In this document: piece by piece, positions 2,107 to 60,440 of the stretch
How the letters are laid out: the number at the start of each line of letters is the position of its first letter
How positions within the stretch are numbered: the stretch's first letter is position 1
Notes under the pieces: model-generated
The model's input: the letters and a program-made list of their open reading frames with translations, nothing else
What the model was told of the DNA's origin: nothing
Database searches by the model: none
Translations under genes and position numbers: made by a program
Assembly (NCBI GenBank): GCA_032718475.1
Contig: JAUCBJ010007673.1
Location: 5,156-69,155 of the forward strand
DNA from: Nemertoderma westbladi
Taxonomy: Eukaryota > Animalia > Xenacoelomorpha
DNA: 64,000 nucleotides
Direction: 5' to 3'

Positions 2107-3368
2107 TGTAAAAGCTTCTGTGGGATATAACTGGCCCCTTTGCTTCGCAATCCAGTTTCCCCCCAGGCGCTGGAATACTCTAAAAAGGTTCTCTAACTGT
2201 ATATATATTCCCCTCGCCCGCAAGGTACCGTTATAGGTGTTTTAACGGACATAAAAGTCATTCTGCTATATACGTGTTTTGGCGGACATGGTAAGGCAAA
2301 AAACCTGCAATGCACCAAATACCTTTCACAGCTTAGCCGTGATCATTCATATTACGACATCTAACAGCTGGTTGCTGACATGGAAACAGCCATTGGACGC
2401 ATGGTTCTTTGTTTGGCTTGAGCCAATCAGAGCGATTTTTCCTGTCGACGTGTAGCTTTTCGGCCGATCATAAGGAGAGTGTTCAGTCTTACTGTTTTTA
2501 CTTGATACTTTGTGTTATTGATATCTAGGCCAGGAACAACGGCTCTAGAGTCAATTCGTTTTCATACTTTAGAAGAAACATTAGTAGGCTTAAATTATAG
2601 AGCATATGACTGTTATCGATTCATATCAATGCATAACAATACTTTGTTCACATCTTGTCATATCATATCTTAACTTACCGTCTTAATGCTGTTTACTGTT
2701 GTGTTTTGGTTGAATATTATTTGGAGAACATATATAAAGAACCCAAATTTCCCAATTTTCTTGATACACTACAGGTTAGAGAGGCGGGTTATATATAGCG
2801 ATTGCGACTTATATTGTTGTGGTTTGTAGTGAATTTAATGCTATTTGATAAGCACTACATTGGTCCGTTGCTGTTCTCTTTATATATGATAAAATTCATT
2901 GATGGTCGGCAAATTAGTGTGCAGTATTGTGTGTTACCGGTAGTGTGCATGATTGTGATTGATAACTAAGCATTTCCTAAAGAATGCGCCTCATACATGA
3001 ATCTTAAGCCTTACCGACTTACCATTGTGATTAGTATAAGTCATATCTCGGTTTACTTAGATAGAGCGCCACGTCCTAAAGGAACTGTTAATATTTCCCG
3101 AAAGTAAATAATATTAGTCAGAAATTAATTATTAACGATCAATCGAATAATACAATACAGTAAGCTTCACTGCAATAATAATTTAAGCCCTCAGAATCCA
3201 GTCTCCCGGGATTATCCAGCGGGTGAATGGACGCGCACTAGGCTGGCTTCTGCTAATGTTGTGTTTATTGGTATTAAATATTTGTCATCTTCTAAAGTAT
3301 ATTTATAAACCAAAAGACATATAAATTTTGGCGGGTTAAACTGCTAAAGGTCTTCAAAAGCGCGTACA
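2107..3368 (+). repeat. E1 5' LTR (1262 bp)
   Basis: tgtaaaagcttc...gcgcgtaca. About 8 substitutions and one TA indel versus the 3' LTR, counted by eye. Confidence 0.95.
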
Positions 3369-3379
3369 ATAACAGTCAT
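3369..3379 (+). promoter_or_regulatory. E1 non-tRNA primer-binding site, complementary to its own LTR
   Basis: ataacagtcat abuts the LTR and is the exact reverse complement of atgactgttat at 2606-2616 (and 13335-13345). Followed by the hairpin actttattgc-agtaa-gcaataaagt (3382-3406). Confidence 0.8.
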
Positions 3380-3789
3380 TGACTTTATTGCAGTAAGCAA
3401 TAAAGTTGAAAGTACCGGTCGACCGGTAAACCTGAACCGGTACTTCTGTAGGTCCGTAGGCCCAACTGCCATAACCGGTACTGCTGTAGGTCCGTAGGTC
3501 CAACTGTCAGAACCGGTACTTCTGTAGGCCTGTAGGCCCAACTGTCCTAACCGGTACTTCCAGTATAAGTACATTAGTATTATTCGATTTTGATTATTGT
3601 ATACTGGTAGGTCTTAGTATTTAATCAGGGACTGCAGCCCTGGTTTTTTATTGAGATTTTACTCATTTCTGTCGGTTTTATTTACATGTAAGTTAATATT
3701 GAGCTGAAGACGTGTAAGTCTGCTCAGATTGTTCAGATAATTGTAGGCCGGACTGTTGTTAGATTGTTGTTGAGTTTGGAGAGATTACG

Positions 3790-4290
3790 GCGTGTGTAGA
3801 GTTTGTCCGATAGAGTGCCAGTTAGTAAGTTGGGGCAGCCATAGCTGTAAGGTCAATCCCCTCTTAAAGAATAAGTCGTACTACCGTGTTAGAACGCATA
3901 CTAACTAACAATTTTGGAATCTGCACATACTGTAGTTTATTTAGGCTTGACAGTATTCTGCCAGCGTTTTGGCTTGTGTTTGTTTGTGTGGTCTGTTCAG
4001 ATACCGTAATAGTTATTACTCAGATATTTTGTAGGCTGGATTGTTGTCTAGCTATTATTAGGTCTGAAGAGATTGCTGCTTGTGTAGAGTTTGTCTGATA
4101 AAGTGCCAGTTAGTAAGTTGGGGCAGCAATAGCGGTAAGGTCAATCCCCTCTTAAAGAATAAGTCGTACTACCGTGTTAGAACGCATACTAACTAACCGT
4201 TTTGGAATCTGCACATACAGTAGTTTATTTAGGCTTGGTGGTAGTCTGCCAGCATTTGGTCTGTATTTTGTTTGAGTATTCTGTACGGGT
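3790..4290. repeat. ~288-bp direct duplication in the E1 5' leader
   Basis: tcaatcccctcttaaagaataagtcgtactacc occurs at 3853 and 4141. A homologous duplication lies in E3 around 58420-59000. Confidence 0.85.
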
Positions 4291-5498: not shown

Positions 5499-5633
5499 TC
5501 TAATATATTATATATATCACGCTACACTGAGTAGCAGTATCGGTAATTAATTATTAGGCTAACAGTGATACTGAATTACTAGACTTGCTTTAGCTGTAAT
5601 CATAGCAGTAGGCATTCAACTGTACAAACAAAC

Positions 5634-8600
5634 ATGTCTGACACAACCCAATCACTGTCGGATAGTCTCTTAGAAAGTGTTAGAATGACTGTTAGACAGT
5701 GTCTTAAAAAGATCAGTGACCCAGATCCAAGTATAGAACATCCTAGATCCAAGTCTAAGTCACCTACTATTGTCAAAAAGGCCATCCCTACAGTAGTAGT
5801 GTCAGACCCTAGGCTAGTAGATCAACGTAGGTCTATCATCGGTACTCGGGCCCAAGTCAAGCGGGATCAAGAAGCAGCTGTCAAACAGCAGCAACATCCT
5901 AGCCTAGAACCTAGCTCCAGTAGTTCGGATACTGCTGAGCGGACGCCCGAACGCGGAGCGAAGATGGTGGATACGGTTTATGATGAACGGCCAACCTATG
6001 AAGAATCAACCGACGCCACTTCTTCTCAAGTGGAAAGCGAAGTGGAAAGCGAATTAACAGCAGAGAAGCCGCGAACTAGAGACGCCATTGACATCTATCT
6101 GTCAGACTATCAGCGATTCCTAGGAGACGAAGAGTTGAGGAGACGACTGTCTGGACTTCGCCCCAATAATGAAGGAACCAAGCTTGTGTTGGACGCAATC
6201 GATGCGGAAATGTTAGCTGCTAACCAAGCAGAATTTGATGAAAAACTCCGCCTCGCTAGAGTCCAAGAAGAAAAAGTAAAGAAAAGACGGATAGAGGAAC
6301 AAAAGGCGGCGGCTACGGCAGAAGCAGAAGCAGAAAGAAAAGCAGCAGCGGCAGAAGCAGAAGCAGAAAGAAAAGCAGCGGCGGCAGAAGTAGAAGCAGA
6401 AAGAATAGCAGCAAAGGCAGCCGCGGCGGAAGCAGAAGCAAAAAGAAAGGCAGCGGCGGCAGAAGCAAAGGCGGAAAGGGCAGTGGCAGAAGCGGAACGG
6501 AGAGCGTCTGAGCAGACTACCCAACTGGAGTTGGAAAATCTGCAAGAGACGCAAGACAACATAAATAAACAGATAACTGCTAGTCAAATGCAGATGATGA
6601 GACGATCTACTCCCAAACGCCAGGGATACACATCATCGGAGGAAAGCAAAACCACCGATCCTGAAGGCGGAGGAAATAGATCTCGTCTAAGCAGGCGTAG
6701 AAAAACAGCTCACCGTCACAAATTGCCTGATTTGCCCCCAGCTGTTAGAAGACAGTTAGCTAGCGCAGACTTAGGTAGTACGGAATCCACATACCAACCT
6801 ATTCAGGTCAAAAGACTCCCTACAATAGTTGATGAGCCTGAAATAATTAGGCCTGTCGTTCCAAAAGTCACACCTGTGCTAGAGACCCCTGTACTTCCAG
6901 AGCTTAACTCTAAGTTCCCTTTACACAGTACTACACTGCCTGTACCCGGTAGAACAATCCATGAGAATATTCCTGTCCTGGAAGCTGAGAGAGAAATTAA
7001 AGATTTGTCTCCCGTCGTCCCACGTCAGCCCGCTACAATGTTGGCGACTCCCGCTTCGGCGGTCGAGTGGGTAGAGGAGGGACGGCGGGGGATGAATCTC
7101 CTGCTCGGACAGATGCAGGAGACTGTCCACCAGCTTAAGGGAACAGTAAGGGAAAGTAGGGCAGAGTTGCAAGAAGTGCAGCAAAGTATCGCACTGGAAC
7201 GCGACAAGTTAGTCAATATACAAAAGGGCATACCAATACCCCCTGTAACATTGTGTCAACCTGTTAGGTCTGAAGTATTACATGCGCAAGGTGTGGAGCC
7301 TACACGCATCTATACTGCTAGTGAAGTAGAAACTCCTATAGCAAACCCTATTAAGGGTGATTATAGACCTGTTATTAATGATATTCCCTATAGACCTGAT
7401 AATGATCCGAGAAATTTATATACCGATAATTCGATATTAAATAATACGATGGCCCAAGAAAGCTTTACGCGTCAGATGGCTAGAACAGAAGCCCGCCAAG
7501 CGGTCAAAGTGGGAGAGATCGTCAAATTCAATGGAGATGAGATGAAATGGTTACCTTTCAACGAATATTACAAAGACAGCATACAGAACTCTGTACTATC
7601 TAACGGAGAGAAACTTAGGTTCCTCATCAAGTGCTTGGAAGGACCTCCCAAGTTAATGGCGTTAAAGTTTATTGGACATCCAGAAGGATTAAGACAAGTA
7701 TGGGATACATTAAACATCAGGTATGGTAACAAGGATAACATAGCTAAGTATTTGTATGCAAAATTAGTAGCCCCCCGACACTTCCTTAGTAGCGGGATTA
7801 TAGAGTTTTCCGATGAGATTCAAGAGATCTGTAGACAATTGGACTGGTTAGGTAAGTCTCATGAATATCAGAGTTCCATGGTTATTGGAGCCGTAGTCTC
7901 TACTTTACCAAAGGGTGGAGTATGTACACGCTGGGACAAGAAAGTGTTGTACATGAATGAACAACAACGACGAAGCCCTACCATGGCTGATCTCATGTCC
8001 TTCTTAGATGGTGAGGTAAAACTACAACTCATCAAGCAGGCCAGAGAGAAAACATCGGAAAATAAGGTAAGTGAGAAACCCGTTTCTAGGAGAAGGATAA
8101 TACCAGTGTGTTATACTGACGACGGCGAAAGCCAAGCTTCTCAAGAAGAGGACAGCGGGAAAGACACAGCAAAATCTTACTATGACAACAAGACCTATAA
8201 AGACGTAAGTAAATACAAGTCTCGAATCAGTGACAGGAGAGAACAGGTAACAACAACTCCTCCTACGTCTCCTAAGAGAATTCACGGAAGAAAGCCCGAA
8301 GAAAGAACGAGAGTGCATAACGTTACCCAAGGTAAGGTGAGTAACATCAAACCAAAATGTGCGCTGTGCGACGGGCCCCACCGTTTGAGTGCGTGTGCTG
8401 AATTTCTAAAGAAATCCCCTGTAGACAGACGTACAGTCCTGTGGAGTAAGCGGTTATGCTATAATTGCCTCAGATCAGGACACCAACGGCGAACCTGTTA
8501 CTCCGACGTAAAGTGTGCAAAGTGTGGCGCGAAACATCACATCTTGTTACACAGTGAGTTCGAACGAGACAACCCGAGTCAGGTAAGTGAGCCCGAACTA

Positions 8601-9791
8601 CATGTCCAATTCAGTGATGTAAATGACACTGATCAAGAGTCTGAGATGGAAGGATTCTATACTGACGAATTCTCCGACGCCAATGAATCCTGTTACCTAA
8701 TAAATATCTCAGTGTATCGAGCACTTACTTATGAAAAGGACACCGACAATGAGTTCCCCCCAACTACTTTTGCCAGACAACCATCTTGGAAAGCTCCAAC
8801 TTCCAACGTAGGAATCAGAGAATTTCCTGTAGTGCAGGTAAGAGTTCATGGTCCTAACAAAAGTTACATAGTGAACGCCCTCCTTGACTCCGGCAGCACA
8901 GGAACATTCATCGATCAAGAACTAGCCGAAGATATCTTTGCTGGACAACCCAAATTCCGGACTAAATTGAATATGTTAGGAATTATGCAGGTTTGGAAAT
9001 CTACCCTAACGGCAGATTACTATGTAGGTGTGTTGTCCACCCCCCAGGATAAATTAGGAGCACAAGGTATAAGGTCGGTAAAAATGGTGGCTATAAAGAA
9101 CTTCGCTACTACCCAAGCAGACCTTTATAATTGGGACGAGGATGAGAGCATCCAACATCTTAAGATACCTCGATTCCAGACAGATTATCCTGGAGTGCAA
9201 ATACTCATCGGCCAAAACGCGCATGAGGCGCTCGAGACATTGGAGAAACGGCCTGCTCAACCGCAGCCACTACAAACCTATGCGGTAAGAACTAGAGTAG
9301 GTTGGTACTTCACTGGCCCTTCCCGTAGAACTCTCAAAGAGAGATTACCTCAACAACAGGTATACCAAGTAAAGGAATGGGAAGTGGAGAGCAGTGATGT
9401 GGACGATCCAACTGAGGGAACACCATACTCCTCAGATAATGACGATATTAACTCCAATGTAGATCAATGGAGACATTGCCTTGGGACGATTAATCCAGCC
9501 GACATCGCTTCCAGAGGAGCAACTCCTCAAGAACTGATAGATACTCCAGGCTGGTTAGGTGGATCCGACTTCTTAAGTAAAGAAGAAGAAGAATGGCCTC
9601 CTCATTTTACAACGGCGGAGATTAGACAGGCCAAGGGAGCGGAGAAAGTAACACAACAACTCAATCGCCCAGCTAGTCGTTTATGTTTACTGGAAAGAGA
9701 CCGAAAACTGTCCGGAAACTATGGAAGGCAAGATACTCTTCCTACGACCACTTCCCTAATCCGACAAATATCTAGGGACTCTATAACGTAA
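5634..9791 (+). CDS. gag: E1 Gag-protease polyprotein with pol remnants (1385 aa)
   Basis: A/E/R coiled coil, BEL Gag core (VKFNGDEMKWLPF...EKLRFL), three zinc knuckles (CALCDGPHRLSAC, CYNCLRSGHQRRTC, CAKCGAKHHILLH), protease ALLDSGSTGTFI, then a jump to QWRHC...NPADIASRG and the integrase tail RPASRLCLLE. Confidence 0.93.
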   Translation: MSDTTQSLSDSLLESVRMTVRQCLKKISDPDPSIEHPRSKSKSPTIVKKAIPTVVVSDPRLVDQRRSIIGTRAQVKRDQEAAVKQQQHPSLEPSSSSSDTAERTPERGAKMVDTVYDERPTYEESTDATSSQVESEVESELTAEKPRTRDAIDIYLSDYQRFLGDEELRRRLSGLRPNNEGTKLVLDAIDAEMLAANQAEFDEKLRLARVQEEKVKKRRIEEQKAAATAEAEAERKAAAAEAEAERKAAAAEVEAERIAAKAAAAEAEAKRKAAAAEAKAERAVAEAERRASEQTTQLELENLQETQDNINKQITASQMQMMRRSTPKRQGYTSSEESKTTDPEGGGNRSRLSRRRKTAHRHKLPDLPPAVRRQLASADLGSTESTYQPIQVKRLPTIVDEPEIIRPVVPKVTPVLETPVLPELNSKFPLHSTTLPVPGRTIHENIPVLEAEREIKDLSPVVPRQPATMLATPASAVEWVEEGRRGMNLLLGQMQETVHQLKGTVRESRAELQEVQQSIALERDKLVNIQKGIPIPPVTLCQPVRSEVLHAQGVEPTRIYTASEVETPIANPIKGDYRPVINDIPYRPDNDPRNLYTDNSILNNTMAQESFTRQMARTEARQAVKVGEIVKFNGDEMKWLPFNEYYKDSIQNSVLSNGEKLRFLIKCLEGPPKLMALKFIGHPEGLRQVWDTLNIRYGNKDNIAKYLYAKLVAPRHFLSSGIIEFSDEIQEICRQLDWLGKSHEYQSSMVIGAVVSTLPKGGVCTRWDKKVLYMNEQQRRSPTMADLMSFLDGEVKLQLIKQAREKTSENKVSEKPVSRRRIIPVCYTDDGESQASQEEDSGKDTAKSYYDNKTYKDVSKYKSRISDRREQVTTTPPTSPKRIHGRKPEERTRVHNVTQGKVSNIKPKCALCDGPHRLSACAEFLKKSPVDRRTVLWSKRLCYNCLRSGHQRRTCYSDVKCAKCGAKHHILLHSEFERDNPSQVSEPELHVQFSDVNDTDQESEMEGFYTDEFSDANESCYLINISVYRALTYEKDTDNEFPPTTFARQPSWKAPTSNVGIREFPVVQVRVHGPNKSYIVNALLDSGSTGTFIDQELAEDIFAGQPKFRTKLNMLGIMQVWKSTLTADYYVGVLSTPQDKLGAQGIRSVKMVAIKNFATTQADLYNWDEDESIQHLKIPRFQTDYPGVQILIGQNAHEALETLEKRPAQPQPLQTYAVRTRVGWYFTGPSRRTLKERLPQQQVYQVKEWEVESSDVDDPTEGTPYSSDNDDINSNVDQWRHCLGTINPADIASRGATPQELIDTPGWLGGSDFLSKEEEEWPPHFTTAEIRQAKGAEKVTQQLNRPASRLCLLERDRKLSGNYGRQDTLPTTTSLIRQISRDSIT

Positions 9792-12833: not shown

Positions 12834-14097
12834 TGTAAAAGCTTCTGTGGGATATAACTGGCCCCTTTGCTTCGCAATCCAGTTTCCCCCCAGGCGCTGG
12901 AATACTCTAAAAAGGTTCTCTAACTGTATATATATATTCCCCTCGCCCGCAAGGTACCGTTATAGGTGTTTTAACGGACATAAAAGTCATTCTGCTATAT
13001 ACGTGTTTTGGCGGACATGGTAAGGCAAAAAACCTGCAATGCACCAAATACCTTTCACAGCTTAGCCGTGATGATTCATATTACGACATCTAACAGCTGG
13101 TTGCTGACATGGAAACAGCCATTGGACGCATGGTTCTTTGTTTGGCTTGAGCCAATCAGAGCGATTTTTCCTGTCGACGTGTAGCTTTTCGGCCGATCAT
13201 AAGGAGAGTGTTCAGTCTTACTGTTTTTACTTGATACTTTGTGTTATTGCTATCTAGGCCAGGAACAACGGCTCTAGAGTCAATTCGTTTTCATACTTTA
13301 GAAGAAACATTAGTAGGCTTAAATTATAGAGCGTATGACTGTTATCGATTCATATCAATGCATAACAATACTTTGTTCACATCTTGTCATATCATATCTT
13401 AACTTACCGTCTTAATGCTGTTTACTGTTGTGTTTTGGTTGAATATTATTTGGAGAACATATATAAAGAACCCAAATTTCCCAATTTTCTTGATACACTA
13501 CAGGTTAGAGAGGCGGGTTATATATAGCGATTGCGACTTATATTGTTGTGGTTTGTAGTGAATTTAATGCTATTTGATAAGCACTACATTGGTCCGTTGC
13601 TGTTCTCTTTATATATGATAAAATTCATTGACGGTCGGCAAATTAGTGTGCAGTATTGTGTGTTACCGGTAGTGTGCATGATTGTGACTGATAACTAAGC
13701 ATTTCCTAAAGAATGCGCCTCATACGTGAATCTTAAGCCTTACCGACTTACCGTTGTGATTAGTATAAGTCATATCTCGGTTTACTTAGATAGAGCGCCA
13801 CGTCCTAAAGGAACTGTTAATATTTCCCGAAAGTAAATAATATTAGTCAGAAATTAATTATTAACGATCAATCGAATAATACAATACAGTAAGCTTCACT
13901 GCAATAATAATTTAAGCCCTCAGAATCCAGTCTCCCGGGATTATCCAGCGGGTGAATGGACGCGCACTAGGCTGGCTTCTGCTAATGTTGTGTTTATTGG
14001 TAATAAATATTTGTCATCTTCTAAAGTATATTTATAAACCAAAAGACATATAAATTTTGGCGGGTTAAACTGCTAAAGGTCTTCAAAAGCGCGTACA
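12834..14097 (+). repeat. E1 3' LTR (1264 bp)
   Basis: Copy of 2107-3368 followed by the TSD tatga. Confidence 0.95.
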
Positions 14098-41980: not shown

Positions 41981-41984
41981 ATCC

Positions 41985-46500: not shown

Positions 46501-47786
46501 CTCATCTAGGAACTCTTGTAAAGAGTAGGTTCGTCCACGTTTGATGTCCTCCTCGAGATTTTGTATTTCTCTATCGAACTGGGGTAAAGCTAATTCCTTC
46601 ACCGCTTGTACTTGTTGCTGCAATTTACGTTTCTCCAAACAATCGTAAGTTCCCTTTCCGATTTTCTGCCGAATAGCGTCTAACGCGTTTCGTACGACGC
46701 TCTCTTCGACTTCCGTAACGGGTTGTATTGGGGTGAAGCCGGGACGGTTGTACGGGTTAAACGGCGATATTATATGACCGCGTCCTAATCCGGCTAGGTA
46801 GGGTTGGCGAATATCTAGCGAGCCTACTACCGGAGTGCCACCGATCAACTGTTCGGGTAACACTAGATCTTTGAACAGTGAGTACAGTTCGGGAGGATCA
46901 GTGATACTATTAGGATCAAGAGTCTGAGGTCTAACTGAGGAATGAGGAGGTCTGACCGAGTATTCCGGAACTCTGATCATTGGTTTATTCAAGGATCGTT
47001 TGAGTCGAGCGACCGTAGGTGATACGTCGAACAGGTTTCGCTCGAAACTCCCATAAGTATATCATGTAAAACTGTGTTTAGCGCAACGTCTCCGCGGATG
47101 TTTATGTCTTTCCGTTTGCTGATTGGGTCTAGGGCATTCGTCGCAGTAATACCAAAGACGCACGTCCTGCAGGGGAAACGCGGGTGATTGTTCTCCAGTT
47201 TTACAATATTCCTCCATCTGTTCGAAGCTATCTGGGATGACAGGTAGCGGTCGATCGGCGGTAAGATACATCATAGTGAAATAGAGTCGTTTGAGTTCTA
47301 TCATAGGATCATGATGTATACCTTGAGGATATCGAGTTTCGAGATTTTTTTGGCTAGCAATTCCAGATAATCGTTGAAGTCGCTGCGTTTATCCGGTTCT
47401 TCAACGTCTTCCCTTGCGAGTCTGTTTCGAATAGAGTTCTCGTGTTTTATTCTCGGTTTATCATTCCGACTCCGCTGGGTATGATATTTAAATAAAACCA
47501 TTTCCCTTTCGGTGTCTACGTCGTCCGTATCGTGTAAATCGATAGGATGGCCAGTAGTTAAGAAGTCCATATACGTACCATTACGATGCGTATAGCGAGC
47601 GGTGAACTTTCTATAATCCAATTCATGCGTAAGTTGCTCCGGGGACATTGGCGGTTCAATATAACGACCATCATCCTCCGTAGTAGTGGAACCAGCGTCG
47701 CCGGGTATCAAGCTATCGACAAACGCTTGCAAAGGTAGAGTATATCTCTCCCTGATACCAAGATCATCTTCTATCAACTCAGTCAT
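43562..47786 (-). pseudogene. E3 ORF3: DEDDy 3'-5' exonuclease with CCHC knuckles, broken into four frames
   Basis: Fragments 47301-47786, 47062-47304, 44005-46992 and 43562-44074. Motifs VVTYDNEG, IHIRGLAGSTHVF, LPQPVLEMLFNERILKIGSAVYGDL, PFIDTQL, CAYCRLNNSHIFAVC and CHHCQLKGHASYNC. Confidence 0.85.
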
Positions 47787-49506: not shown

Positions 49507-52500
49507 TCACACACCCACTCCAGCTGGGGAGTCCCTAGATGTTTGTTGGATTAGGGAGGTGGTCGTGGGAAGAGTATCTTGTCTTCCATAGTTTCCGGAG
49601 AGTTCTCTGTCTCTTTCCAGTAAACATAAGCGACCAACTGGGCGATTGAGCTGCTGTGTCTCGAAGACAATTCCCGGTTTCTTGAAGTTACGTCGCATGA
49701 CGACGAGTTCTACCGATCGCACCAAACCGTCATCCGAGATGTGAGTCTCAATGATACGACCTGTCTGACCACTTAGTTCGAAGTTGTAGCGTGGGCAGAT
49801 AATGTTTTTCGAAATGGTCAGCGAAACGACGGGATAACAACTGCATGAGTTGCCAAGTTTGCCGGCAGTATTCGTCTCTGTCTGTGATTTCCGATTGTGG
49901 GAGCATGGCTACAGGTTTCTTCAGTAGGAAGTGCGCGGGTGTTAGCGCTTCCAGGGAATCGGGACTCGATGAGACTGGCATAAGCGGTCTCTCGTTGAGA
50001 TAGGCGGCGATTTCCTCCATTAATGTCCGCAAAAGTTCGTCGGTGAGATACGTGCGGCACGGCACTATAAAGTGAAATGCGGTCTTCACACTTCTTATTA
50101 ATCTCTCCCAACTTCCTCCCCACCAAGGGGCGTCGGCGGCGTTGAAGGTCCAGCTAGACGCTGTTACTCGTAGGTGATCGTCCATCTGTCTTTGGTTCCA
50201 ATCTTTGACGTAAGCTTTGATTTCATTGTTGGCACCAATGAAGTTTGTTCCCTTATCAGATCTCATCGTGTTACTAGTTCCAAAGCGAGCGATCTGTCGT
50301 CGTAAGCTTAATAGGAAGCTGTTGGTAGATAAATCGTTCACCATATCGAGATGGATAGCTCTACAAGTCATACAAACAAAGATGACACACCATCTCTTGA
50401 CTATAGTCCTAGCACGATATACTTCAATAGGGCCAAATAAATCTACACCGGTATTAGTAAAGGATGGTTCATAGAAGCTTACTCGTTCCCTAGGTAATTC
50501 TGCCTCTCGCTGTGTTAAAGGCCTACTGAATGCTTTCCTACAGGGTATGCAGTTCCTAAGAACTTGGTTCAGAGCTCTACGGGGTTTATAAAAATAATAG
50601 CGAGTTCGAATTTCGCTAAGAACTCGTTCTCTACCAGCATGATAAAGTTTGCTGTGAACATCTACAATCATCTTGACTTGTATCTCAAGATTTCTAATGA
50701 GTATGGGAAACTTAGTGTCAAAGGATAATGGAGCATTCGTTAATCTTCCTCCAACACGTATCAACCCATCTATCATTGTACTAGAGAAACGATCCCTTAA
50801 ACGCATCTGTGGATTTCTCAACAACAGAAAATACTTATCGGAATCCTCATAGCATTGCAGGAGTCTCAGCATCTGCTTGTTGGTTTCTTCATGCTCCTGA
50901 TAACTGATCTTCTCCTTCAGAAACCTGTCGGATATCTTATATTTGGGAAGATCTTTAACAACATGGACCTGCACCGATGTTAGTGGAGCGGTATCACTTT
51001 TGGTCTTCATCCCGGAGTAGTGATGGTGAAAACATCTTTTTAAATATGTAACGGCCTTACAGAGCCGATTCCAGGAACTGTAGTGATGTATCGCTCTCTG
51101 CAGGAGAGGTGAGAGTCCTTGCGAGACGTCTGGTATTCCAGATTTCCAATCCTTCTCACGGATTTCCACAACAAACTTATTTGTGGCTGTGGGTTTCTGA
51201 TCCAAAGCGTCGTCTCCGGAAGTATGTAGTACAGACAGATCTACCATAGGTTTGAATAACTTCGATTTACTCGCCCGAGTTTTAGGTTTGACTTTCTCCG
51301 CTCCCTTGGCCTGTCTAATCTCTGCTGTAGTAAGATGAGGAGGCCATTCTTCTTCTTCTTTGTAGAGGAAGTCGGGTCCACCTAACCAGTCTGGAGTATC
51401 TACCAGTTCTTGTGGAGTAGCTCCCCTGGAGGCGATGTCTGCTGGATTGATCGTTCCGGGGCAATGTCTCCATTGATCCATCGTCGTGCGACTGAGTATA
51501 ATAGCTACTCTGTTGGTAACGAAGACGCTGAACTGACAGACTTCATTGGTTATATACTCCTACACGAGCAAAGCGTCGGTCCAATAGACAGTTTTCTCCA
51601 GTGGATAGTCGATCTGTTCTGTTACATTCCGGCCGATGGCTGTAGCGTATAGAGCCGCTTTTAACTCCGCTCGAGGAACTTTCAACTTGTTGTTATTGAT
51701 TCCGTCCGGAGTTTCCACCCTTAGGTAGGCTACTATACCTATTCCCATATCGCTGGCGTCTCCAAATACATGGAGTTGATAGGAATACGTAGGGAGAACA
51801 TGACCAAAATATGAACAGGAAATTATAAAGTTCTTGATGGCTGGTAGAGAATCTTCCCATTTCATCCACTTCTTTAATAATTCTCCCTTAAGTGGATCGT
51901 CCCATGAGTGGTTTTCAAGCCACATTTGTTGTACTAAACTCCAAGCAATCAATATAACTGGGCTAATAAATCCCAATGGATCGAAATAAGTGCTCAGGAT
52001 ACTTAAACAAATCCGTTTTGTCCGAACTGGATTATCTCGCTGTTTTAGCTGGAAAAACAGGATATCTCTCTCTGTGTCCCATTTCAAACCAAGTGTCTTG
52101 GTTTCTGGAAGATCATCTTTGATTAGATCTAGGTCTTTCGCTCCTCGATCTTCTACCGGGATTGACTCCAGAAACTCACGGGAGTTGCTGCTGAATTTAG
52201 TTAATCGAAATCCACCTCTTTTTAAGCACTCTACCGTTCCTTTAGCGACATCAATGGCTTCTTCGACTGATGGAAGGGACTTTAGATTGTCGTCCATGTA
52301 TATATCCCGTTTGATGTTGTCTATCACCTCTTTAGAGAAGGCTTCCCGGTTGTCATCTGCAGTGGTGCGCACCACTGAACAGGCGTTTGAAGGGCTTGAG
52401 ATTATCCCAAAAGCCTGGATGGTCATCCAGTACTCCACTGGTTTCTGGTTGAGGTCTCCTTCAGGCCACCGCAGAAATCGTAGGCTATCTCGATCCCTAT

Positions 52501-55500
52501 CCAGCGCCTTGACTTGTAAGAACATGCCTTCTATATCTGAGGCGAAAGCGATTGAATATTGTCTTAATCTTAAGAGTATTCCCAACAAGGATTGGAGTAA
52601 GTTGGGTCCGGGTAACAATTCGGAATTAAGGGATTGGCCCATATAGAGGGCAGAGCCGTCAAACACCACTCGTACCTCATGGGGTTTACCGGGTTTGGGA
52701 ACGTAATGGTTAGTTAAATAATACGTTCTCTCAGTTATAGGTGTTTCTTCCGGTACTCGCTCCGCATATCCCTTGCTAATAAATTTCTTCAACTGCGTTT
52801 GATACATTTCTTTAGCTGAAGAATTTGCCGTAAGGCGTCGATGTAGTTGAGCAATTCTTTTCTCCGCCAAGGGTCTGTTGTTTATGAACTTTGGTTCTCG
52901 CTTTCGGAAAGGTAGACCGATCTCATATCTACCTTGATCTTTAAGAAAACGTGTAGTTGTCTCTTGGATCTGCTTGGCTCTTTCTTCCTCTACCGATAGG
53001 GCATTATCGTAGGAATTGGGCTCTACAGCCTCTTGAGTAAAGAATCGTACGGCGTGTTCATCCCGAGTCTTGGCATTATAACGTTCAATGACGTCATTAA
53101 GTTCGTCATTATAGTCATCTCGTTCTGATGGACGGAGTAGCTGACATAAGTTCACTTGGTTTTGCCAAGTCTCGTTTTCCTTAAGGAGATCAATGGTATT
53201 CTCCTCATCGAAGAGTTGGTGGACATCGTCATTATCTGAGGAGTATGGTGTTCCCTCAGTTGGATCGTCTAACTCACTGCTCTCAACTTCCCATTCTCTT
53301 ACCTGATATACCTGATCTTTCGGTAATCTTTCCATGAGAGTTCTACGGGAAGGGCCAGTAAAGTACCAACCCACTCTAGTTTTTCCCGCATAAGCTTGTA
53401 GTGGTTGCGGTTGAGCAGGCCGTTTCTCCAATGTCTCGAGCGCTTCATGCGCGTTTTGACAGATAAGTATTTGCACTCCAGGGTAATCGGTGTTGAATCT
53501 AGGTATTTCGAGCTGCTGGGTGAAATCGTCCTCATCCTAGTTATAAGGTTCCACTTGGCTGGTAGCGAAGTTCTTTATCGCCACCATTTTTACTGACCTT
53601 ATACTATGTTCTCCTAGTTCATCCTGGGGGGTGGACAACGCACCTACATAATAATCTGCGATTACTGTAGATTTCCAAACCTGCATAATTCCTGACATAT
53701 TTAGTTTAGTTCGGAACTTGGGTTGTCCAGCAAAGATGTCTTCGGCTAGTTCTTTGTCGATGAATGTTCCTGTGCTACCGGAGTCAAGGAGGGCGTTCAC
53801 TATATAACTCCTTTTAGGTCCGTGGACCCTTAACTGTACTACAGGAAATTCTCGGATTCCTACATTGGAAGTTGGCGCTTTCCAAGATGGTTGTCGATCA
53901 GAAGTAGTTAGGGTGAGGTCGCTGTCTGTGTCTTTTTCATACGTAAGTGCTCGATACACTGCGGTATTTATCATGTAACAGGATTCATCTTCGTCGGAGA
54001 ATTCATCCGTATAGAATCCTTCCATCTCAGAACTTTGGTCAGTGTCGTTCACATCACTGAATTGGACATGTAGTTCGGAACTCCAATAACCATAGAACTC
54101 TGATATTCATGAGACTTACCTAACCAATCTAATTGTCTACAGATCTCTTGAATCTCATCGGAACTCTATTATCCCGCTGCTAATGAACTTTCGGGGCGCT
54201 ACTAATTTTGCATACAAATATTTAGCTATGTTATTCCTATTACCATACCTGATGTTTAGTGTATCCCAAACTTGTCTTAATCCATCTGGATGTCCAATAA
54301 ACTTTAACGCCATTAACTTGGGAGATCCTTCCAAGCACTCGATGAGGAATCTAAGTTTCTCTCCATTAGATAGTACAGAGTTCTGTATGTTATCTTTGTA
54401 ATATTCATTAAAAGGTAACCATTTCATCTCATCTCCATTGAACTTGACTATCTCTCCCACCTTTACCGCTTGACGGGCTTCGGTTCTAGCCATTTGACGC
54501 GTAAAACTTTCTTGGGCCATCGTGTTATTTAATATCGAGTTATCGGTATATAAATTTCTCGGATTATGATCAAGTCTATAGGGAATATCATTGTCAACAG
54601 GTTTATAATTACCCTTAATAGGGTTCACTATAGGAGTTTCTACTTCGCTAGCAGTATAGATGCGTGTAGGCTCCACACCTTGCGCATGAGATACTTCAGA
54701 CCTAACAGGTTGACACATTGTTACCGGGGGTGGTGGTATACCCTTTTGTGTATTTACTAATTTATCACGTTCTAATGCGATACTTTGCTGCACTTCTTGC
54801 AACTCTAACCTACTTTCCCTTACTGTGCCCTTGAACTGCTTAACAGTCTCCTGCATCTGCCCGAGCAGGAGATCCATCCCCCGCCGTCTCTCATCCACCC
54901 ACTCGACCGCCGAAGCGGGAGCCGCCAACGTTGTAGCGGGCAGACGAGGGACAACGGGCGACAAATCATTAATATTTCGCTCGGAGTCCAGAACATGAAC
55001 TGTCTCCTGGGCTGTTCTGCTGGGCACAGGTAGCTTAGTGCTATGCAAAGGGAATCTAGAGGTAGGTTCTGGGAGTACAGGTGTCTCTATCACCGAAGGG
55101 GTGGATTCGAGAACAGGCCCAATTATTTCAGGCTCATCTACTATAGTAGGGAGTCTGTCTATTTTAATAATTTGGTCTGTGGGTTCTGTACTACCTAAGT
55201 CTGTGCTAACTAGTTGTTTTAGAACAGCTGGGGGCAAATCAGGAATTTCTGATGGTGGGACATTCTTCTACGTCTGCTGAGACGAGATCGATTTCCTCCA
55301 CCTTCAGGATCTGTTGTATCGCCCTCATCTGATGATGTAAAACCCTGTCTCTTGGGAGTAGATCGACTCATCATCTGCATTTGACTAGCTGTTAACTGTT
55401 TATTTATGCAGTCCCAACTCTCCTGAATATCCTCCAACTCCAGGTGGGTGGTCTCTTCAGCTGCTCTTCGTTCTGCTTCTGCCAATGCTCGCTTTCTTTC

Positions 55501-56965
55501 TGCTTCTACTGCTGCCACTGCCGCTTTTCTATCTGATTCTGCCCGCTGCAGCTTTTGCCTCTGCCGCACTTCTTTCCGCTTCTACTGCTGCCACTGCCGC
55601 TTTTCTATCTGATTCTGCTGCTGCAGTTTTTGCCTCTGCCGCTCTTCTTTCCGCTTCTACTGATGCCACTGCCGCTTTTCTATCTGATTCTGCCGCTGCA
55701 GCTTTTGCCGCTGCCGCTCTTCTTTCCACTTCTGCCGCTTTTCTTTCTGCTTCTGCCTCTGCTGCTGCCGCTGCTGCTATCTTTCTGTCTTCTATACGTT
55801 TTTTCTTTACTTGTTCTTCTTGGACTCTAGTGATGCGGAGGCGTTCATCAAATTTAGCTTGGTTCGCAGCTCTCATATCCACATCGATTGCATCCAACAC
55901 AAGCTTGGCTCCTTCACTATTAGGGCTAAGCCCCTCCAGCCTTCTCCTCAACTCTTCATCTCCTACAAAACGTTGATAGTCCGACAGATAGATGTCAATA
56001 GCATCCCTCTGATGCGGTTTCTCCACCGTCGCTTCACTTGAGAAACTTTCCACTTGAGAAAATGTAGCGTCTGTGGATTCTCCATGGGTTGAGCGCTCAG
56101 CTACCTGAGATTTCCACGGGGCAGTTCTTTGAACTTGGAGACTCACCCGCTGTAACCAAGTTTTTACGGCAACTTGCAACGACGTGTCCTGTTTTCTTTT
56201 CGAAGCCTCCTCAAAGGCCGATAGGATTAGTCTGATTCTTAGAATTCTTTCTCGAACTTGATAAAGCAGCTCTCCCTGCTCTTGAGGTCCTTGTGATTGT
56301 CTAAACAATTGTTCTTCTAATCGCTCCATGGAGCTGAAGAATCTCTGTACGTATCCGGCTGCGGACCTCTTCCACACAGCTGGTTCGATGGTTTCCTTGG
56401 TTACTCCCATCCTGTGTATGTCTTCCCAGGCAGCTTCCGATAAATCAAACGGGAGTCCGGGTCCGGGGAAGTTCCATTGCGACTCGACCATAGGCTTCAG
56501 TTCTTCCCTTGTGTATCCCGCATAACTATCCTTAGTCGATCGCTTATTTCTCGCCCAATCAATCTGGTGTTCCTCCACCGCAATCAATAACCTAGTGAGT
56601 ACGGCTGCAGGAAGGATGAGAAGGGGATCCGAATAAACCGCATCTGTCATCTTTGCTCCGTGCTCGGGTGTCAGCTCTACAGTATCCGCACTGCTGGAGC
56701 TGTCGGGCTGCTGAGAAATAAGTTCTCGGCTCGCGGGTAGTTGCTGTTCTGCTGCTTCTTGGTCCCGCTTGACCTGAGCTCGAGTGCCTATGATAGACCT
56801 ACGATGTTGGACTAGCCTAGGGTCTGATATTACTACTAGAGGGATGATCTTTCTTACAGTAGGAGGTGAGTTGAACTTCGGTCCCACACGTTCCACACTC
56901 CTGTCTGGGTCACATATGGTTGTATCTAGGAGACTGTCTGACAGGTTTTGCTTTGTGTCAGACAT
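49507..56965 (-). pseudogene. pol: E3 gag-pol, fragmented
   Basis: Gag fragments 55529-56965, 55219-55569 and 54155-55237; protease ALLDSGSTG (53537-54052); RT DIYMDDNL and RNase H LHVFGDAS (51560-53476); integrase GVDLFGP, RSDKGTNF, WERLIRS (49748-51481). About 700 bp containing the Gag knuckles is deleted at 54080. Confidence 0.92.
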
Positions 56966-59252
56966 GTTGGTTTGTACAGTTGCATGCCTACTGCTATATT
57001 ACAGTTTAAGCAAGTCTAGTAATTCAGTATCACTGTTAGCCTAGTAATTAATTACCGATACTGCTACTCGGTGTAGCGTGATATATATATAATATATTAG
57101 AATACCGGTATGCTTATAGTATATATAAGTATTATTACAGACTAAGTTTGTCACAGAATACCGGTAGGTAATTTCAGCACGAATATATATAAATATATAA
57201 TAGGCCTATCGTGAATACCGGTATACAGCTTACACTTATAGTATATATAAGTATAATTATGAACTAGAATTAATTACAGAATACCGGTATAATTTCAGCC
57301 TAAATTTATAGATATATAATAGGCCTATCGTGAATACCGGTATACAGCTTACACTTATAGTATATATATAAGTATAATTACAGACTAGAATTGATTACAG
57401 AATACCGGTATGATTTCAGCCTAAATTTATAGAAATAAATATAATAAGCCTATGGTGAATACCGGTATGTCAATTATTTTATAATAATTGACTTTCTGAA
57501 TTTTAGGGTTACTTGGTTACTTTAACTTACTTTATTACCGTTATTTAAGCAGTAGTCCAACTGATATTTAGACCTAATTGTTGTATGGCAGGCCTACTAT
57601 TTATAAATCGTTTGAGTTGATTTATAATATATATACCCGTTAAAATGGGTCTTTGTCAATATTTGAAATAAATGTTATTATTTCCGGGGGGAGTCACTAC
57701 ACAGCGGTGCGCTCTCAGTGAAGTGCTACTTGTTGGACACTAAAACAAATAATTCTAATTTACCTAAGTTACTTAATACTACAAATTACGTACAATTCGG
57801 GGTGAGATTACAATCTCTAAATAAACACAAAAATTTACAAGTACGAATTTTTAGGGTAATTTTACAAGAAGTCTACTAACCAGCCTAACAAAGGGTTAGA
57901 ATATCTGGTTATTACAACGGACAGGGTACTATGGTATTTTGAAAATAATAAGTAGTAGTAAATATACTGCATTGTCCAGATAGGAAAATACCACCGTCTG
58001 ACGACTTATAGCCGTATCGCTATAAGTACTACGTTATGTATCACGGAGTGTTCCTACCTAGAAGTTAATTACCGCGGTCTACCAGAACCAACGTGCCTAT
58101 TAACCACTTTACAACACAAATATACTGCCTACACACTAATTGCTTTCGGAAAGCACTGTACACTAAACCCTAAATTAGGTACAAGTACTTATACAACAAA
58201 TAATCAGTAGTTAGAAATACTTGTACAGCCAAAAGAACCACGGTATCTGCTGGAGTGACCGGGGCACAAAATCACCAGTCTTTACCTACGCCAAGCAGCC
58301 CTGATGTAGTACCGGGGTTAATTTAACTATAACGGTATATATAACAAGCACAATTACTGTAGGAATAAACTTGGGGATATGAATGTTGCGAATAATCGCA
58401 TAAACTCTGAATAATAAATATTACGCTACGCGTACAGACTACTCAAACAAAATGCAGACCAAATACTGACAGACTACTATCAAGCCTAAACAAACTACGG
58501 TATATGCAGACTCCAAAATGGTTAGTTAGTATGCGTTCTAACCCAGTAGTACGACTTATTCTTTCGAGGGGGTTTACCTCACAGCTCTGGAAGCCCCTAC
58601 ATTCCCAACTGGCACTTTATCGGACATACACTCTACACACACCGAAATCTCTTCAGACCTAACAACAGCCAGACAAAATCCAGCCTACAAATTATCTAAA
58701 TAAGAAATATTACGCTACCCGTACAGACTACACAAACAGAGTACAGACTAAACGCTGGCAGACTACTATCAAGCCTAAATACACTACAGTATATGCAGAC
58801 TCCGAAATGGTTAGTTAGTATGCGTTCTAACCGAGTAGTACAACTTATTCTTTCGAGGGGGTTTACCTCACAGCACTGGAAGCCCCTACTTTCCTAACTA
58901 GTACTTTTTCGGACATACGCTCTACACACACTATAGTCTCTTCAGACTTAACAACAGTCAGACAACAGTCCAGCCTACAAATTATCCATATAATCTGAGC
59001 AGGCTTACACACCTTCTTCTCAATATTGGCCTACAAATAAATAAAACTGACAGAAATAAGTAAGCTCCAAAAGAAACAAGGGGTGTACAGTCCCTAATCT
59101 CTTAAACAGCCTACCGGTATACAATTTCACAATCGAATAATACTGCTGTACCTGTACTGCTGTAGGTACCGGTCCGGGTGGTTAGGTAGTCAGGCCTACT
59201 AGGTACCGGTTGTCCAGTACTTCAGCGTTATTGCCTACTGCAATACAGAAGC

Positions 59253-59264
59253 TATATCTGTTAT
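59253..59264 (-). promoter_or_regulatory. E3 non-tRNA primer-binding site, complementary to its own LTR
   Basis: Element-sense ataacagatata is complementary to element-sense tatatctgttat at 59987-59998 (and 43030-43041). The hairpin tattgc-agtag-gcaata follows (59229-59245). Confidence 0.8.
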
Positions 59265-60440
59265 TGTTCGCGCTTTCAGACCTTTAGCAGTTTAACCTGC
59301 CAAATTGGGATGTCTTCTAGATAATAGATAGTCTTTAGCCTATGACGAGTATTTGATACACTACATTAGCCGAAGCCAGTCTATGCGCAATCATTCACCC
59401 GCTGGATATACCCGGGAGACTGGATTCGGAAGCCTAACCGTATTGCGGTATAGGCCTACTGTATTATTCGACTGATCGTAATATATAATCTCTGACAAAT
59501 ATTATTCACTTTCGGGAAATATTAACAGTTCCTTTAGGACATGGCGCTCTAAATATGTAAACAGAGTTATGACTTAAACTAGACACAACGGGATGGCTAT
59601 AGATTCACGTATATGGCGCATTCTTTAGGAGATGCTTTGTTATCAGTCACAATCATACACAATACTGCACAATGCTGCACACTGATCTGCCGACCTTCAC
59701 TAATTTTAGTCACATATAAAGAGAACAACAGACAATACATGTAGTGCCTATGAAATAGCATTAGATTCACTTCAAAACCACTTTAATGTAAGTCGCAATC
59801 GTTATATGTAACCGGTCTCTCTAACCTTCAGTATATCAAGAAGATCGAGGGTTTGTAATTATTTATCGGTATTCCCAATATAATAATATTCCATCAACAG
59901 ATATAATGAATAACCGACAGTAAATAGCAGTACAAATGTTAAGGTATGAATTGATATGATATGTGAGTTATGATTGTAAACATGCGATAACAGATATACG
60001 TTCTATAATTAAGCCTACTAATGTTGGGCTAGAGACTGAAAACACAGAGATTCCAAAAGCCGGTCTTCTGGGCTCAGGACAAAATGTAAACATTGACCCA
60101 TAATGCATTGCGCGATTTCTCGGAGGTTTCTGTACAAAAAGCAGGAGAATCGCTCTGATTGGTTGACCGAACAAAGAAACATCAGAGAACAAGGAAAAAG
60201 CTATACGTGTACAGCTCAGCTGTTAGCTGTCGTCATAGTAACTACACTGTTTCAAGAGGATCTAGCGCATTGCGTCACAGAATTGCTAATTATGTCCGCT
60301 AAAGTACACATACAGAAGAAATAGCTTTTATGTCCCCTAAAACACCAGTACAGTAAGGATACGGCCTTTTATGCCTGTTAAACCAACTACAGAGTACTTT
60401 ACGGGGAAAATAACCGGTTAATTCCGCAAAAGCTTTTACA
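59265..60440 (-). repeat. E3 5' LTR
   Basis: Element sense tgtaaaagcttttgcgg...gcgcgaaca. Confidence 0.95.

What the first reader, a model, noticed from the sequence alone, without database searches (positions are those of the whole stretch)
2606..59998. tRNA-independent self-priming signature shared by all three BEL/Pao elements
Seen: no element has a TGG-type PBS. In each, the nucleotides directly abutting the 5' LTR are the exact reverse complement of a site inside the LTR. E1: ataacagtcat (3369-3379) vs atgactgttat (2606-2616). E2: gtaggaatatg (17247-17257) vs catattcctac (16188-16198). E3: ataacagatata (59253-59264, minus) vs tatatctgttat (59987-59998, minus). E1 and E3 differ in both partners in a compensatory way (TCAT/ATGA vs ATATA/TATAT), and E2 uses an unrelated sequence with the same geometry. 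Pairing stops exactly at the LTR edge. Rough chance per element is about 1,900/4^11 (~5e-4), somewhat higher in AT-rich DNA. Established: 11-nt self-priming is known from fission-yeast Tf1 and related Tf1/sushi Ty3/Gypsy elements, while BEL/Pao elements are normally tRNA-primed. Inference: this lineage primes minus-strand synthesis with its own RNA. The site lies 440-870 nt into the LTR, and in E2 about 450 nt downstream of the best TATA box, so it may not be the 5' end of the RNA as it is in Tf1.
Basis: partly seen in the sequence, partly recalled or inferred. Interest (0 to 1): 0.93.

Follow-up and report, generated by a model that had tools for sequence, protein, structure and literature searches.

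The report
BEL/Pao retrotransposons that prime themselves
Three young jumping genes of the BEL/Pao group lack the usual tRNA landing site and carry instead 11-12 letters that pair exactly with their own terminal repeat, so they likely start DNA copying with a piece of their own RNA, and two of them also carry an extra gene predicted to encode an RNA-trimming enzyme.

Summary
Observation confirmed. In all three elements the 11-12 nt abutting the 5' LTR (edges fixed by target-site duplications) are the exact complement of one LTR site; shuffle P is about 0.001 each. E1 and E3 differ by two compensatory pairs; E2 is a distant family (RT 45% identical to E3). No TGG occurs in the first 40 leader bases.

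Distant BEL/Pao relatives agree: 0 of 17 testable loci start with TGG. In 14 the site pairs with a splice junction inside the LTR, and in 1-2 with a contiguous site. The scan noted this signature before on other genomes.

New here: E2 and E3 form a long-branched lineage with very long LTRs, intron-less sites and a third ORF that is not env but an RNase D/EXD2-like exonuclease with zinc knuckles.

Best reading: Tf1-like self-priming by a longer 5' RNA fragment, probably cut by RNase H. Self-priming about 0.8, this exact route about 0.5. The rival is trimming by the element's exonuclease. Start site, cut and host tRNAs are untested. Not found in print in my searches.

The parts
2107..3368 (+). 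E1 5' LTR (1262 bp, TG..CA); TSD TATGA at 2102-2106 and 14098-14102
2606..2616 (+). E1 putative self-primer 3' end (LTR position 500-510)
3369..3379 (+). E1 PBS, abutting the LTR, exact complement of 2606-2616
5583..9791 (+). E1 gag-like ORF (DUF1759). E1 lacks most of RT/integrase and the exonuclease part of ORF3, so it is non-autonomous
12834..14097 (+). E1 3' LTR (99.2% to the 5' LTR), site copy at 13335-13345, purine tract just upstream
15321..17246 (+). E2 5' LTR (1926 bp, TA..TA termini, TSD TTGTA); three CCAAT boxes at LTR 271-331, TATA at LTR 411, AATAAA at LTR 437, 550, 1121
16188..16198 (+). E2 putative self-primer 3' end (LTR position 868-878)
17247..17257 (+). E2 PBS, abutting the LTR, exact complement of 16188-16198
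18042..23018 (+). E2 gag-protease ORF (DUF1759, CCHC); followed by an interruption of about 1.15 kb at the start of RT
24008..28027 (+). E2 RT-RNase H-integrase ORF (P0001); YVDD and the RNase H and integrase acidic motifs are present
28666..32412 (+). E2 ORF3 (P0002): predicted DEDDy/RNase D-like 3'-5' exonuclease (D478, E480, D568, Y673..E677) plus multi-Cys zinc cluster; no envelope match
33206..36367 (+). E2 3' LTR with an insert of about 1.23 kb (34037-35268); site copy at 35307-35317 has one mismatch to the PBS
42308..43483 (-). E3 3' LTR (99.6% to the 5' LTR), site copy at 43030-43041
44005..47061 (-). E3 ORF3 (P0004): exonuclease plus zinc cluster, about 30% identical to E2 ORF3 (D468, E470, D569, Y677..E681)
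49748..56998 (-). E3 gag-pol, broken into several frames by stops and frameshifts
59253..59264 (-). E3 PBS, abutting the LTR, exact complement of 59987-59998
59265..60440 (-). E3 5' LTR (1176 bp, TG..CA, TSD ATAGT)
59986..60025 (-). 40-nt block conserved across the E1/E3 family; it ends 1-2 nt past the putative primer end (site 59987-59998) and begins near an Inr-like or acceptor-like TTAG

Best explanation
These are young BEL/Pao retrotransposons whose primer-binding position pairs with a site in their own LTR, and they likely prime minus-strand DNA synthesis with their own RNA rather than a host tRNA. Shown: the pairing, its position at the exact LTR edge, the compensatory changes, the absence of TGG, and the same logic in distant relatives. 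Inferred steps: (1) transcription starts upstream of the site, so the site lies in R. (2) The RNA folds back so that the site pairs with the PBS, probably helped by the Gag nucleocapsid. (3) The RNA is cut at the 3' edge of the site, most likely by the element's RNase H as in Tf1; this leaves a capped 5' fragment of about 30 nt to several hundred nt as primer, longer than Tf1's 11-mer. (4) RT copies U5 up to the cut, then jumps to the 3' LTR just past the site. In most relatives the site is assembled by splicing an LTR intron. This lineage has the contiguous form, likely through intron loss or as an unspliced alternative. Self-priming of any kind: about 0.8. This particular route (cis, RNase H cut): about 0.5.
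For: Edge-anchored 11/11/12-nt matches, P about 0.001 each, in two families only 45% identical in RT. Two compensatory pairs between E1 and E3. No TGG in leader 1-40. Relatives: of 80 metagenome loci, 13 had a 5' LTR end defined by a repeat (11 families). 0 of 13 start with TGG; 11 pair 10-15 nt across an LTR splice junction (at most 3 of 400 shuffles, all with strong GTAAG or GTACG donors that the test did not demand); L070 pairs 11 nt contiguously (0 of 400) and L063 10 nt (8 of 400). Held-out set with the rule fixed: 4 of 19 loci testable, 0 of 4 with TGG, 3 of 4 with 11-nt junction matches (2, 6 and 2 of 300). In 10 of the 13 relatives an A(A/T)TAAA lies downstream of the site and in 5 a TATA lies upstream of it, as needed if the site is in R. 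In four public runs, contig depth over the E1/E3 family falls at least 30-fold 1-2 nt past the site, and the sequences that follow disagree with each other, so constraint ends at the predicted primer end. RNase H acidic motifs are present in E2. A T(C/T)AG lies 33-34 nt before the site end in all three (weak). Precedent: Tf1 and Tj1 (passages of 10.1101/2022.12.06.519325, and PMC4600332). The RNase H cut in Tf1 rests on the title of Levin 1996 in that reference list and on recall.
Against: No start site, cut or primer-DNA junction was observed. In minimum-energy folds of 816-1142 nt the helix is absent for E1 and E3 and present (10 of 11 pairs) for E2. Forcing it costs only 1.1-2.1 kcal/mol, and 6 of 10 relatives keep it unforced. 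In E1 and E3 the site has a conserved alternative partner at about LTR 854-860. Tf1's three-duplex 'pretzel' is only partly matched: a U5-side arm in E2 only. Extension of the helix on the 5' side is not significant per element (5-14% of control windows do as well) and competes with a leader hairpin in E1. E2's best promoter (CCAAT and TATA) is about 460 nt upstream with two AATAAA before the site, and E1 has a TATA-like box downstream of its site, so the U3/R geometry is unresolved. E2's 3' LTR site has a mismatch. The conservation boundary is one of several in this LTR and could reflect selection alone. The offset and splice rule was chosen after viewing; one held-out locus (L083) failed (26 of 300).
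Confidence: 0.52

Rival explanations
1. Self-priming by trimming. The primer is the 3' end of an element RNA (a short LTR-only transcript, or the 3' LTR end of the genomic RNA). It anneals to the PBS and is trimmed 3'-5' by the element's own ORF3 exonuclease until the duplex stops it.
For: E2 and E3 both keep an ORF3 whose family profile matches EXD2 (E 1e-10), T. brucei RNase D (exonuclease and CCHC parts), Egalitarian and WRN; the folded model matches the same nucleases. Acidic motifs are conserved at about 30% identity. A perfect helix ending at the LTR edge is what a duplex-stopped exonuclease would leave. Both LTRs carry the site. PMC5408684 suggests 3'-end processing of element RNA for such ORFs.
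Against: None of 99 related BEL loci gave an ORF3 hit (window positive control found; many contigs are too short to hold it), yet most testable ones show the self-pairing, so the nuclease is not generally needed. The last catalytic position is Glu rather than Asp in both copies; activity is untested. The model is modest (mean pLDDT 52, domain segments mostly 60-87). Rotifer gypsy-like elements carry a similar ORF with no reported link to priming. The gene may act in defence or RNA turnover instead.
Confidence: 0.22
2. The pairing is structural: it circularises the genome or acts as a switch that aids strand transfer, packaging or translation, while some other primer, probably a tRNA, is used.
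For: If transcription starts downstream of the site (E1 has TATA-like boxes at LTR 625-627), the site exists only in the 3' U3, and 5'-3' contacts near the PBS are known for Ty3 (passages of PMC5371799). The site has an alternative conserved partner in E1 and E3.
Against: The helix covers the very bases where a primer must sit. There is no TGG within 40 nt. Relatives build the partner by splicing downstream of a TATA box, which places it in the 5' transcript.
Confidence: 0.12
3. A host tRNA fragment or other small host RNA primes, and the LTR site is a decoy, a captured copy, or a by-product of how these elements copy their ends.
For: Half-tRNA priming exists in copia and Ty5 (passages of PMC5371799; PMC6317226). 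Host tRNAs could not be searched. A copying step that writes the site into the PBS would by itself keep the two matched.
Against: PBS sequences differ between E1, E3, E2 and at least 11 related families, and each matches its own LTR or its own splice junction. The two tRNA-like units in the window match the PBS for at most 4 nt.
Confidence: 0.1
4. Chance complementarity in AT-rich DNA.
For: 11-13 nt matches to the LTR also occur at other leader offsets (for example 13 nt at E1 leader +209).
Against: Edge-anchored P about 0.001 in each of two independent families, compensatory changes, and the pattern in relatives.
Confidence: 0.01

Closest known systems
Tf1/Tf2/Tj1 and the Tf1/sushi group (Ty3/gypsy chromoviruses); self-priming also predicted for plant Tcn1 and the copia TAR lineage
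   Same: No tRNA site; PBS abutting the 5' LTR complementary to about 11 nt of the element's own LTR (passages).
   Different: Different superfamily (BEL/Pao). The site lies 440-870 nt into a 1.2-1.9 kb LTR and is probably not the RNA's first 11 nt. The three-duplex pretzel is only partly matched. Relatives build the site by splicing. An exonuclease ORF3 is present.
Belpaoviridae / BEL-Pao LTR retrotransposons (nearest hits are marine invertebrate and fish elements, about 45% RT identity)
   Same: DUF1759 gag, Peptidase_A17, DUF5641, order PR-RT-RH-IN, YVDD, LTRs, purine tract, 5-bp TSD.
   Different: The ICTV profile (PMC8742986, whole text) gives an 18-nt PBS for tRNA-Arg or tRNA-Gly, genomes of 4.2-10 kb, LTRs of 0.2-1.2 kb and an optional env. 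Here there is no tRNA PBS, elements are 12-21 kb, LTRs 1.2-1.9 kb, ORF3 is an exonuclease, and E2 has TA..TA termini.
DEDDy (RNase D-like) ORF3 of bdelloid rotifer Juno and Vesta LTR elements and Athena retroelements (Rodriguez et al. 2017, PMC5408684)
   Same: A third ORF after pol encoding an RNase D-like 3'-5' exonuclease, some with Cys/His motifs; altered acidic motif (passages and part 3 of the text).
   Different: Those are not BEL/Pao, and the words PBS and self-priming do not occur in that text. Direct homology to the rotifer ORFs was not tested. Here the ORF has a larger C-terminal zinc cluster and Glu at the last catalytic position.
Cellular EXD2, T. brucei RNase D, Nibbler, NrnC, WRN exonuclease
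   Same: Fold and Exo I/II motifs; T. brucei RNase D shares the exonuclease plus CCHC architecture.
   Different: Sequence identity 10-16%; element-borne; activity untested.

Membership tests
BEL/Pao (Belpaoviridae) | BEL/Pao-type gag and pol domains in the order PR-RT-RH-IN | tested here: met
   DUF1759, Peptidase_A17, Integrase_H2C2, DUF5641; nearest proteins have the same architecture
BEL/Pao (Belpaoviridae) | LTRs, purine tract, target-site duplication | tested here: met
   E2 termini are TA..TA rather than TG..CA
BEL/Pao (Belpaoviridae) | 18-nt PBS complementary to the 3' end of tRNA-Arg or tRNA-Gly (a descriptive feature in the ICTV profile; membership rests on pol) | tested here: not met
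   no TGG in leader 1-40 of any element; profile text
BEL/Pao (Belpaoviridae) | Placement in a named clade (Suzu, Sinbad/Sailor, Tas, BEL, Pao, Dan, Flow) | not testable with these tools
   no named reference sequences on hand; E2 and E3 form a long-branched pair (support 0.99) beside the marine relatives in a midpoint-rooted tree of 90 sequences
Tf1/sushi self-priming group | Ty3/gypsy chromovirus pol | tested here: not met
   pol is BEL/Pao
Tf1/sushi self-priming group | PBS complementary to the element's own LTR, no tRNA site | tested here: met
Tf1/sushi self-priming group | Self-primer is the 5' terminus of the mRNA | not testable with these tools
   only contigs, no RNA holder on record; promoter motifs ambiguous
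Tf1/sushi self-priming group | Three-duplex pretzel around the PBS | tested here: inconclusive
   U5-side arm in E2 (2 of 1860), none in E1 or E3; a 10-bp leader-side arm is possible in E1 but competes with a hairpin
Tf1/sushi self-priming group | Primer released by RNase H cleavage | not testable with these tools
   needs biochemistry; RNase H motifs present in E2
Splice-junction self-primer BEL/Pao (seen in relatives and in earlier scan notes) | PBS complementary to an exon-exon junction inside the LTR | tested here: not met
   E1-E3 best spliced matches 8, 9 and 7 nt with weak sites, against contiguous 11-12 nt; met in 14 of 17 testable relatives
DEDDy 3'-5' exonucleases (ORF3) | Fold and Exo I, II, III acidic motifs | tested here: inconclusive
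   profile and fold match; Exo I and II present; Exo III has Glu for Asp; no direct Pfam exonuclease hit for E2 or E3 ORF3, one relative hits PF01612 at E 6e-5

The most novel reading that the evidence does not exclude
This lineage encodes a complete tRNA-free priming kit: a primer RNA written in its LTR and its own RNase D-like exonuclease that trims that RNA to the edge of the PBS duplex. It is one branch of a large part of BEL/Pao that has replaced tRNA priming with self-made primers, built by splicing in most families and by nuclease trimming here.
Probability: 0.2. Interest if true: 0.92.

Novelty: new variant of a known kind. Interest (0 to 1): 0.74.

Why it matters
The current family profile says BEL/Pao elements are primed by host tRNA-Arg or tRNA-Gly and calls their replication poorly understood. 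If this reading holds, a large marine branch of the family is tRNA-independent, and self-priming arose in a third LTR superfamily. It would come in at least two forms: a splice-built site in most relatives and a contiguous site here. It predicts exact, mappable RNA ends, so the open question of how BEL/Pao elements start reverse transcription becomes testable by sequencing. It implies that annotation tools requiring a tRNA PBS would miss or mis-score such elements. It also gives a concrete hypothesis for the unexplained exonuclease ORF3s of retroelements.

Tried and rejected
No host genome is held, so no tRNA search and no census of full copies. ARAGORN found no tRNA in the window. Rfam gave one tRNA-like hit at 60811-60882; neither it nor the tRNA-like unit in E2's U3 matches a PBS beyond 4 nt.

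No RNA holder listed. One run is only guessed to be RNA; its contigs showed no canonical splice joint among the joints listed and cannot show starts or ends.

An out-of-sample covariation test was inconclusive. One run showed a different PBS at a loose end, but the letters of its contig over the site were not displayed. Two single-contig site variants had no visible PBS partner.

No close relatives were found: an exact 33-nt LTR pattern gave 0 hits in metagenomes; viral contigs gave none for ORF3 or RT; word-indexed searches for ORF3 gave none. The ORF3 alignment was too diverse for a locus search, so ORF3 relatives have no genomic context.

A spliced primer for E1-E3 was rejected. A second 7-bp pairing between LTR about 145 and leader +12-18 did not appear among shared stems and was dropped. 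The 5' extension helix is not significant per element. No CTGA.GA hammerhead core occurs in the 5' LTRs. A poly(A)-junction primer for relatives whose leaders begin TT was replaced by the splice-junction fit. ORF3 as env was rejected.

The first structure prediction failed (pLDDT 30). The protein atlas gave no answer. The first folding script timed out. The bacterial promoter scan was uninformative.

Rows left out: 67 of 80 loci and 15 of 19 had no usable repeat-defined LTR end. Six loci, including L009 and L045, were dropped from the tree for short alignments. LTR lengths for L056 and L063 were set by eye.

Full report
VERDICT. How the primer's 3' end is made is open: I favour a Tf1-like RNase H cut (about 0.5) over trimming by an element-encoded exonuclease (about 0.2). 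It works like Tf1 self-priming but is not a Tf1/sushi member.

OBSERVATION. All six strings are at the stated coordinates. LTR ends are fixed by comparing the two LTRs and by 5-bp target-site duplications, so the matches begin at the first base after the LTR. Lengths are 11, 11 and 12 nt, at LTR positions 500, 868 and 443; in 20,000 shuffles P is 0.0011, 0.00055 and 0.0008. The LTR pairs are 99.2-99.6% identical, so the insertions are young. E1 is an internally deleted relative of E3. E2 is a separate family with an unrelated LTR and 45% RT identity to E3. There are therefore two independent cases. Among 54 stems shared by aligned E1 and E3, the PBS helix is the longest in Watson-Crick pairs and has two compensatory pairs. 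No TGG occurs in leader 1-40. E2's 3' LTR site carries one mismatch.

ANATOMY. The elements are BEL/Pao by domains, with nearest RTs at about 45% from marine invertebrates and a fish. They are large: 12, 21 and 18 kb, with LTRs of 1.2-1.9 kb. The ICTV profile gives 4.2-10 kb, LTRs of 0.2-1.2 kb and an 18-nt tRNA-Arg or tRNA-Gly PBS (PMC8742986, whole text). E1 lacks most of pol. E2's gag-pol is interrupted by about 1.15 kb. E3's gag-pol has stops and frameshifts.

THE THIRD ORF. E2 and E3 carry a third ORF that is not env. Pfam sees only weak zinc knuckles. A two-sequence profile found 15 unnamed relatives among 1.84 billion representatives. Their alignment shows Exo I and II motifs and a Cys/His cluster; one relative has the cluster fused to a BEL gag-protease. 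The 14-sequence profile hits EXD2 (E 1e-10), a CCHC protein titled T. brucei RNase D, Egalitarian and WRN. A partly confident model (mean pLDDT 52) matches NrnC, EXD2, RNase D, Nibbler and WRN. The last catalytic position is Glu in both copies. Activity is untested.

RELATIVES. An RT search of metagenomes gave 80 loci. Thirteen (11 families) had a 5' LTR end defined by a repeat. A first test with no offset found 4 significant matches. Prompted by two earlier scan notes and by inspection, I allowed a 0-4 nt offset and a GT..AG intron. None of 13 starts with TGG; 11 pair 10-15 nt across an LTR splice junction (at most 3 of 400 shuffles); L070 pairs 11 nt contiguously (0 of 400) and L063 10 nt (8 of 400). 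That rule was set after looking, so I applied it unchanged to 19 new loci. Four were testable, none had TGG, three gave 11-nt junction matches (2, 6 and 2 of 300), and L083 failed (26 of 300). In L070 the 5' copy has an acceptor where the 3' copy (88% identical, perhaps another copy or subfamily) is contiguous, so intron-bearing and intron-less forms coexist. E1-E3 are contiguous and have no good spliced form. In a midpoint-rooted tree they form a long-branched pair (0.99) outside the other loci; the root is uncertain and six loci were dropped. None of the 99 loci gave an ORF3 hit, though many are too short to hold one.

FAMILY VARIATION. Public contigs show the E1/E3 family is very abundant (9,994 contigs laid in one run). 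In all four runs depth collapses between 59986 and 59985, 1-2 nt past the site: 113,865 to 3,468; 89,703 to 936; 7,096 to 16; 12 to 0. The sequences that follow disagree (agreement 0.57-0.64). The site thus ends a 40-nt conserved block; E1 against E3 shows the same (83% then 40%). This fits a primer end and strand-transfer point, but also selection alone, and the LTR has other such edges. A direct covariation test across runs was inconclusive.

MECHANISM. Shown: pairing, edge position, compensation, no TGG, and the same logic in relatives. Inferred: the site lies in R; it folds onto the PBS; it is cut at its 3' edge; the 5' fragment primes; strong-stop DNA jumps to the 3' LTR just past the site. 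In relatives, TATA upstream (5 of 13) and a poly(A) signal downstream (10 of 13) fit this. In the window the promoter is ambiguous. E2 has CCAAT and TATA about 460 nt upstream with two AATAAA before the site; E1 has a TATA-like box downstream. A T(C/T)AG sits 33-34 nt before the site end in all three; it could be an initiator or an acceptor, and is weak evidence. Against: the helix is not in the minimum-energy fold of E1 or E3, though forcing it costs only 1.5-2.1 kcal/mol, and 6 of 10 relatives keep theirs unforced. The 5' extension is not significant; only E2 shows a pretzel-like U5 arm. The trimming rival is attractive because ORF3 is kept in both families, but relatives self-pair without a detectable ORF3.

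LITERATURE. Tf1-type priming and the pretzel: passages of 10.1101/2022.12.06.519325 and PMC4600332. Predicted self-priming in plant Tcn1 and TAR: passages of PMC6317226. Hairpin priming as a possibly ancestral state: passages of PMC3601003. Ty3 bipartite PBS and half-tRNA priming: passages of PMC5371799. Rotifer exonuclease ORF3: passages and part 3 of 5 of PMC5408684. Term searches in four BEL/Pao papers (PMC554778, PMC3118150, PMC6238403, PMC8556966) found no 'PBS' or 'tRNA'; PMC8220671 and PMC11662393 gave only generic passages. Ten searches listed no paper on self-priming or an exonuclease ORF in BEL/Pao; I saw most hits only as listings. Levin's primary papers and Bowen and McDonald 1999 were not held; Frame et al. 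2001 was seen only as a reference. Repbase, GyDB and the full ICTV report were out of reach, and I read no supplements; those of PMC3118150 hold element sequences and could bear on clade placement. From recall only, unverified: C. elegans Cer7 was proposed to encode its own tRNA-like primer, and some Cer elements an RNase D-like domain. If so, parts of this have precedent.

EARLIER SCAN NOTES. Seven notes on other genomes report the same signature, two of them the splice-junction form. Two notes report exonuclease ORF3s in gypsy elements. None joins exonuclease and priming, and none concerns this genome or similar proteins. They are leads, not support; my tests used different DNA.

SCORES. New variant of a known kind; interest 0.74.

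Noticed in passing
window 28666-32412 (+) and 44005-47061 (-): ORF3 is an RNase D/EXD2-like exonuclease with a zinc cluster, from an unnamed family of at least 15 distant proteins; not found described for BEL/Pao in my searches.
   Followed up: yes
L009, L018, L020, L028, L029, L031, L032, L038, L045, L054, L056, L084, L087, L091 (LTR and leader): The PBS pairs 10-15 nt with an exon-exon junction inside the LTR, with strong splice signals in most: a splice-built primer in distant BEL/Pao families.
   Followed up: yes
L070: 1-326 and 6694-7103: The 5' copy has a splice acceptor where the 3' copy (88% identical) has the joined, intron-less sequence; likely intron loss by reverse transcription.
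   Followed up: partly
window 15439-15530 (+), repeated in the 3' LTR near 33325-33415: tRNA-like unit with A-box, B-box and a T-run terminator inside E2's U3; its tail resembles that of the tRNA-like element at 60811-60882. Possible captured SINE or Pol III promoter.
   Followed up: partly
window 15321-15322, 17245-17246, 36366-36367: E2 LTRs begin and end with TA instead of TG..CA, with a clean 5-bp TSD.
   Followed up: no
window 16168-16202 against 35288-35322: Five of seven differences between E2's two LTRs fall within 35 nt around the primer site (1 of 200,000 random trials), next to the insert in the 3' LTR; cause unknown (conversion, insertion repair or the priming step).
   Followed up: partly
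window 34037-35268: Insert of about 1.23 kb in E2's 3' LTR with a short duplication; its start resembles the repeat at about 14820. Likely a non-autonomous DNA element.
   Followed up: no
window 23005-24190: Non-coding stretch of about 1.15 kb interrupting E2's gag-pol at the start of RT; it begins with a donor-like GTGAGG. Insertion or intron not resolved.
   Followed up: partly
window 3435-5490 and 57100-59200: E1 and E3 leaders are over 2 kb with tandem units of 38, about 288 and 121 bp, and a conserved hairpin just after the PBS.
   Followed up: no
window 40700-41990 (-): LTR-less fragment of another E3-family copy carrying pieces of ORF3.
   Followed up: partly
window 63041-64000 (+): Open-ended ORF with an rva_4 integrase core (PF24764), a different mobile element.
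   Followed up: no
L081-L099: BEL/Pao retrotransposon contigs sit inside bacterial and archaeal MAG records, most likely host contamination.
   Followed up: no
window 14933-15320 and 36368-36690: E2 inserted into a repeat unit of about 315 bp.
   Followed up: no
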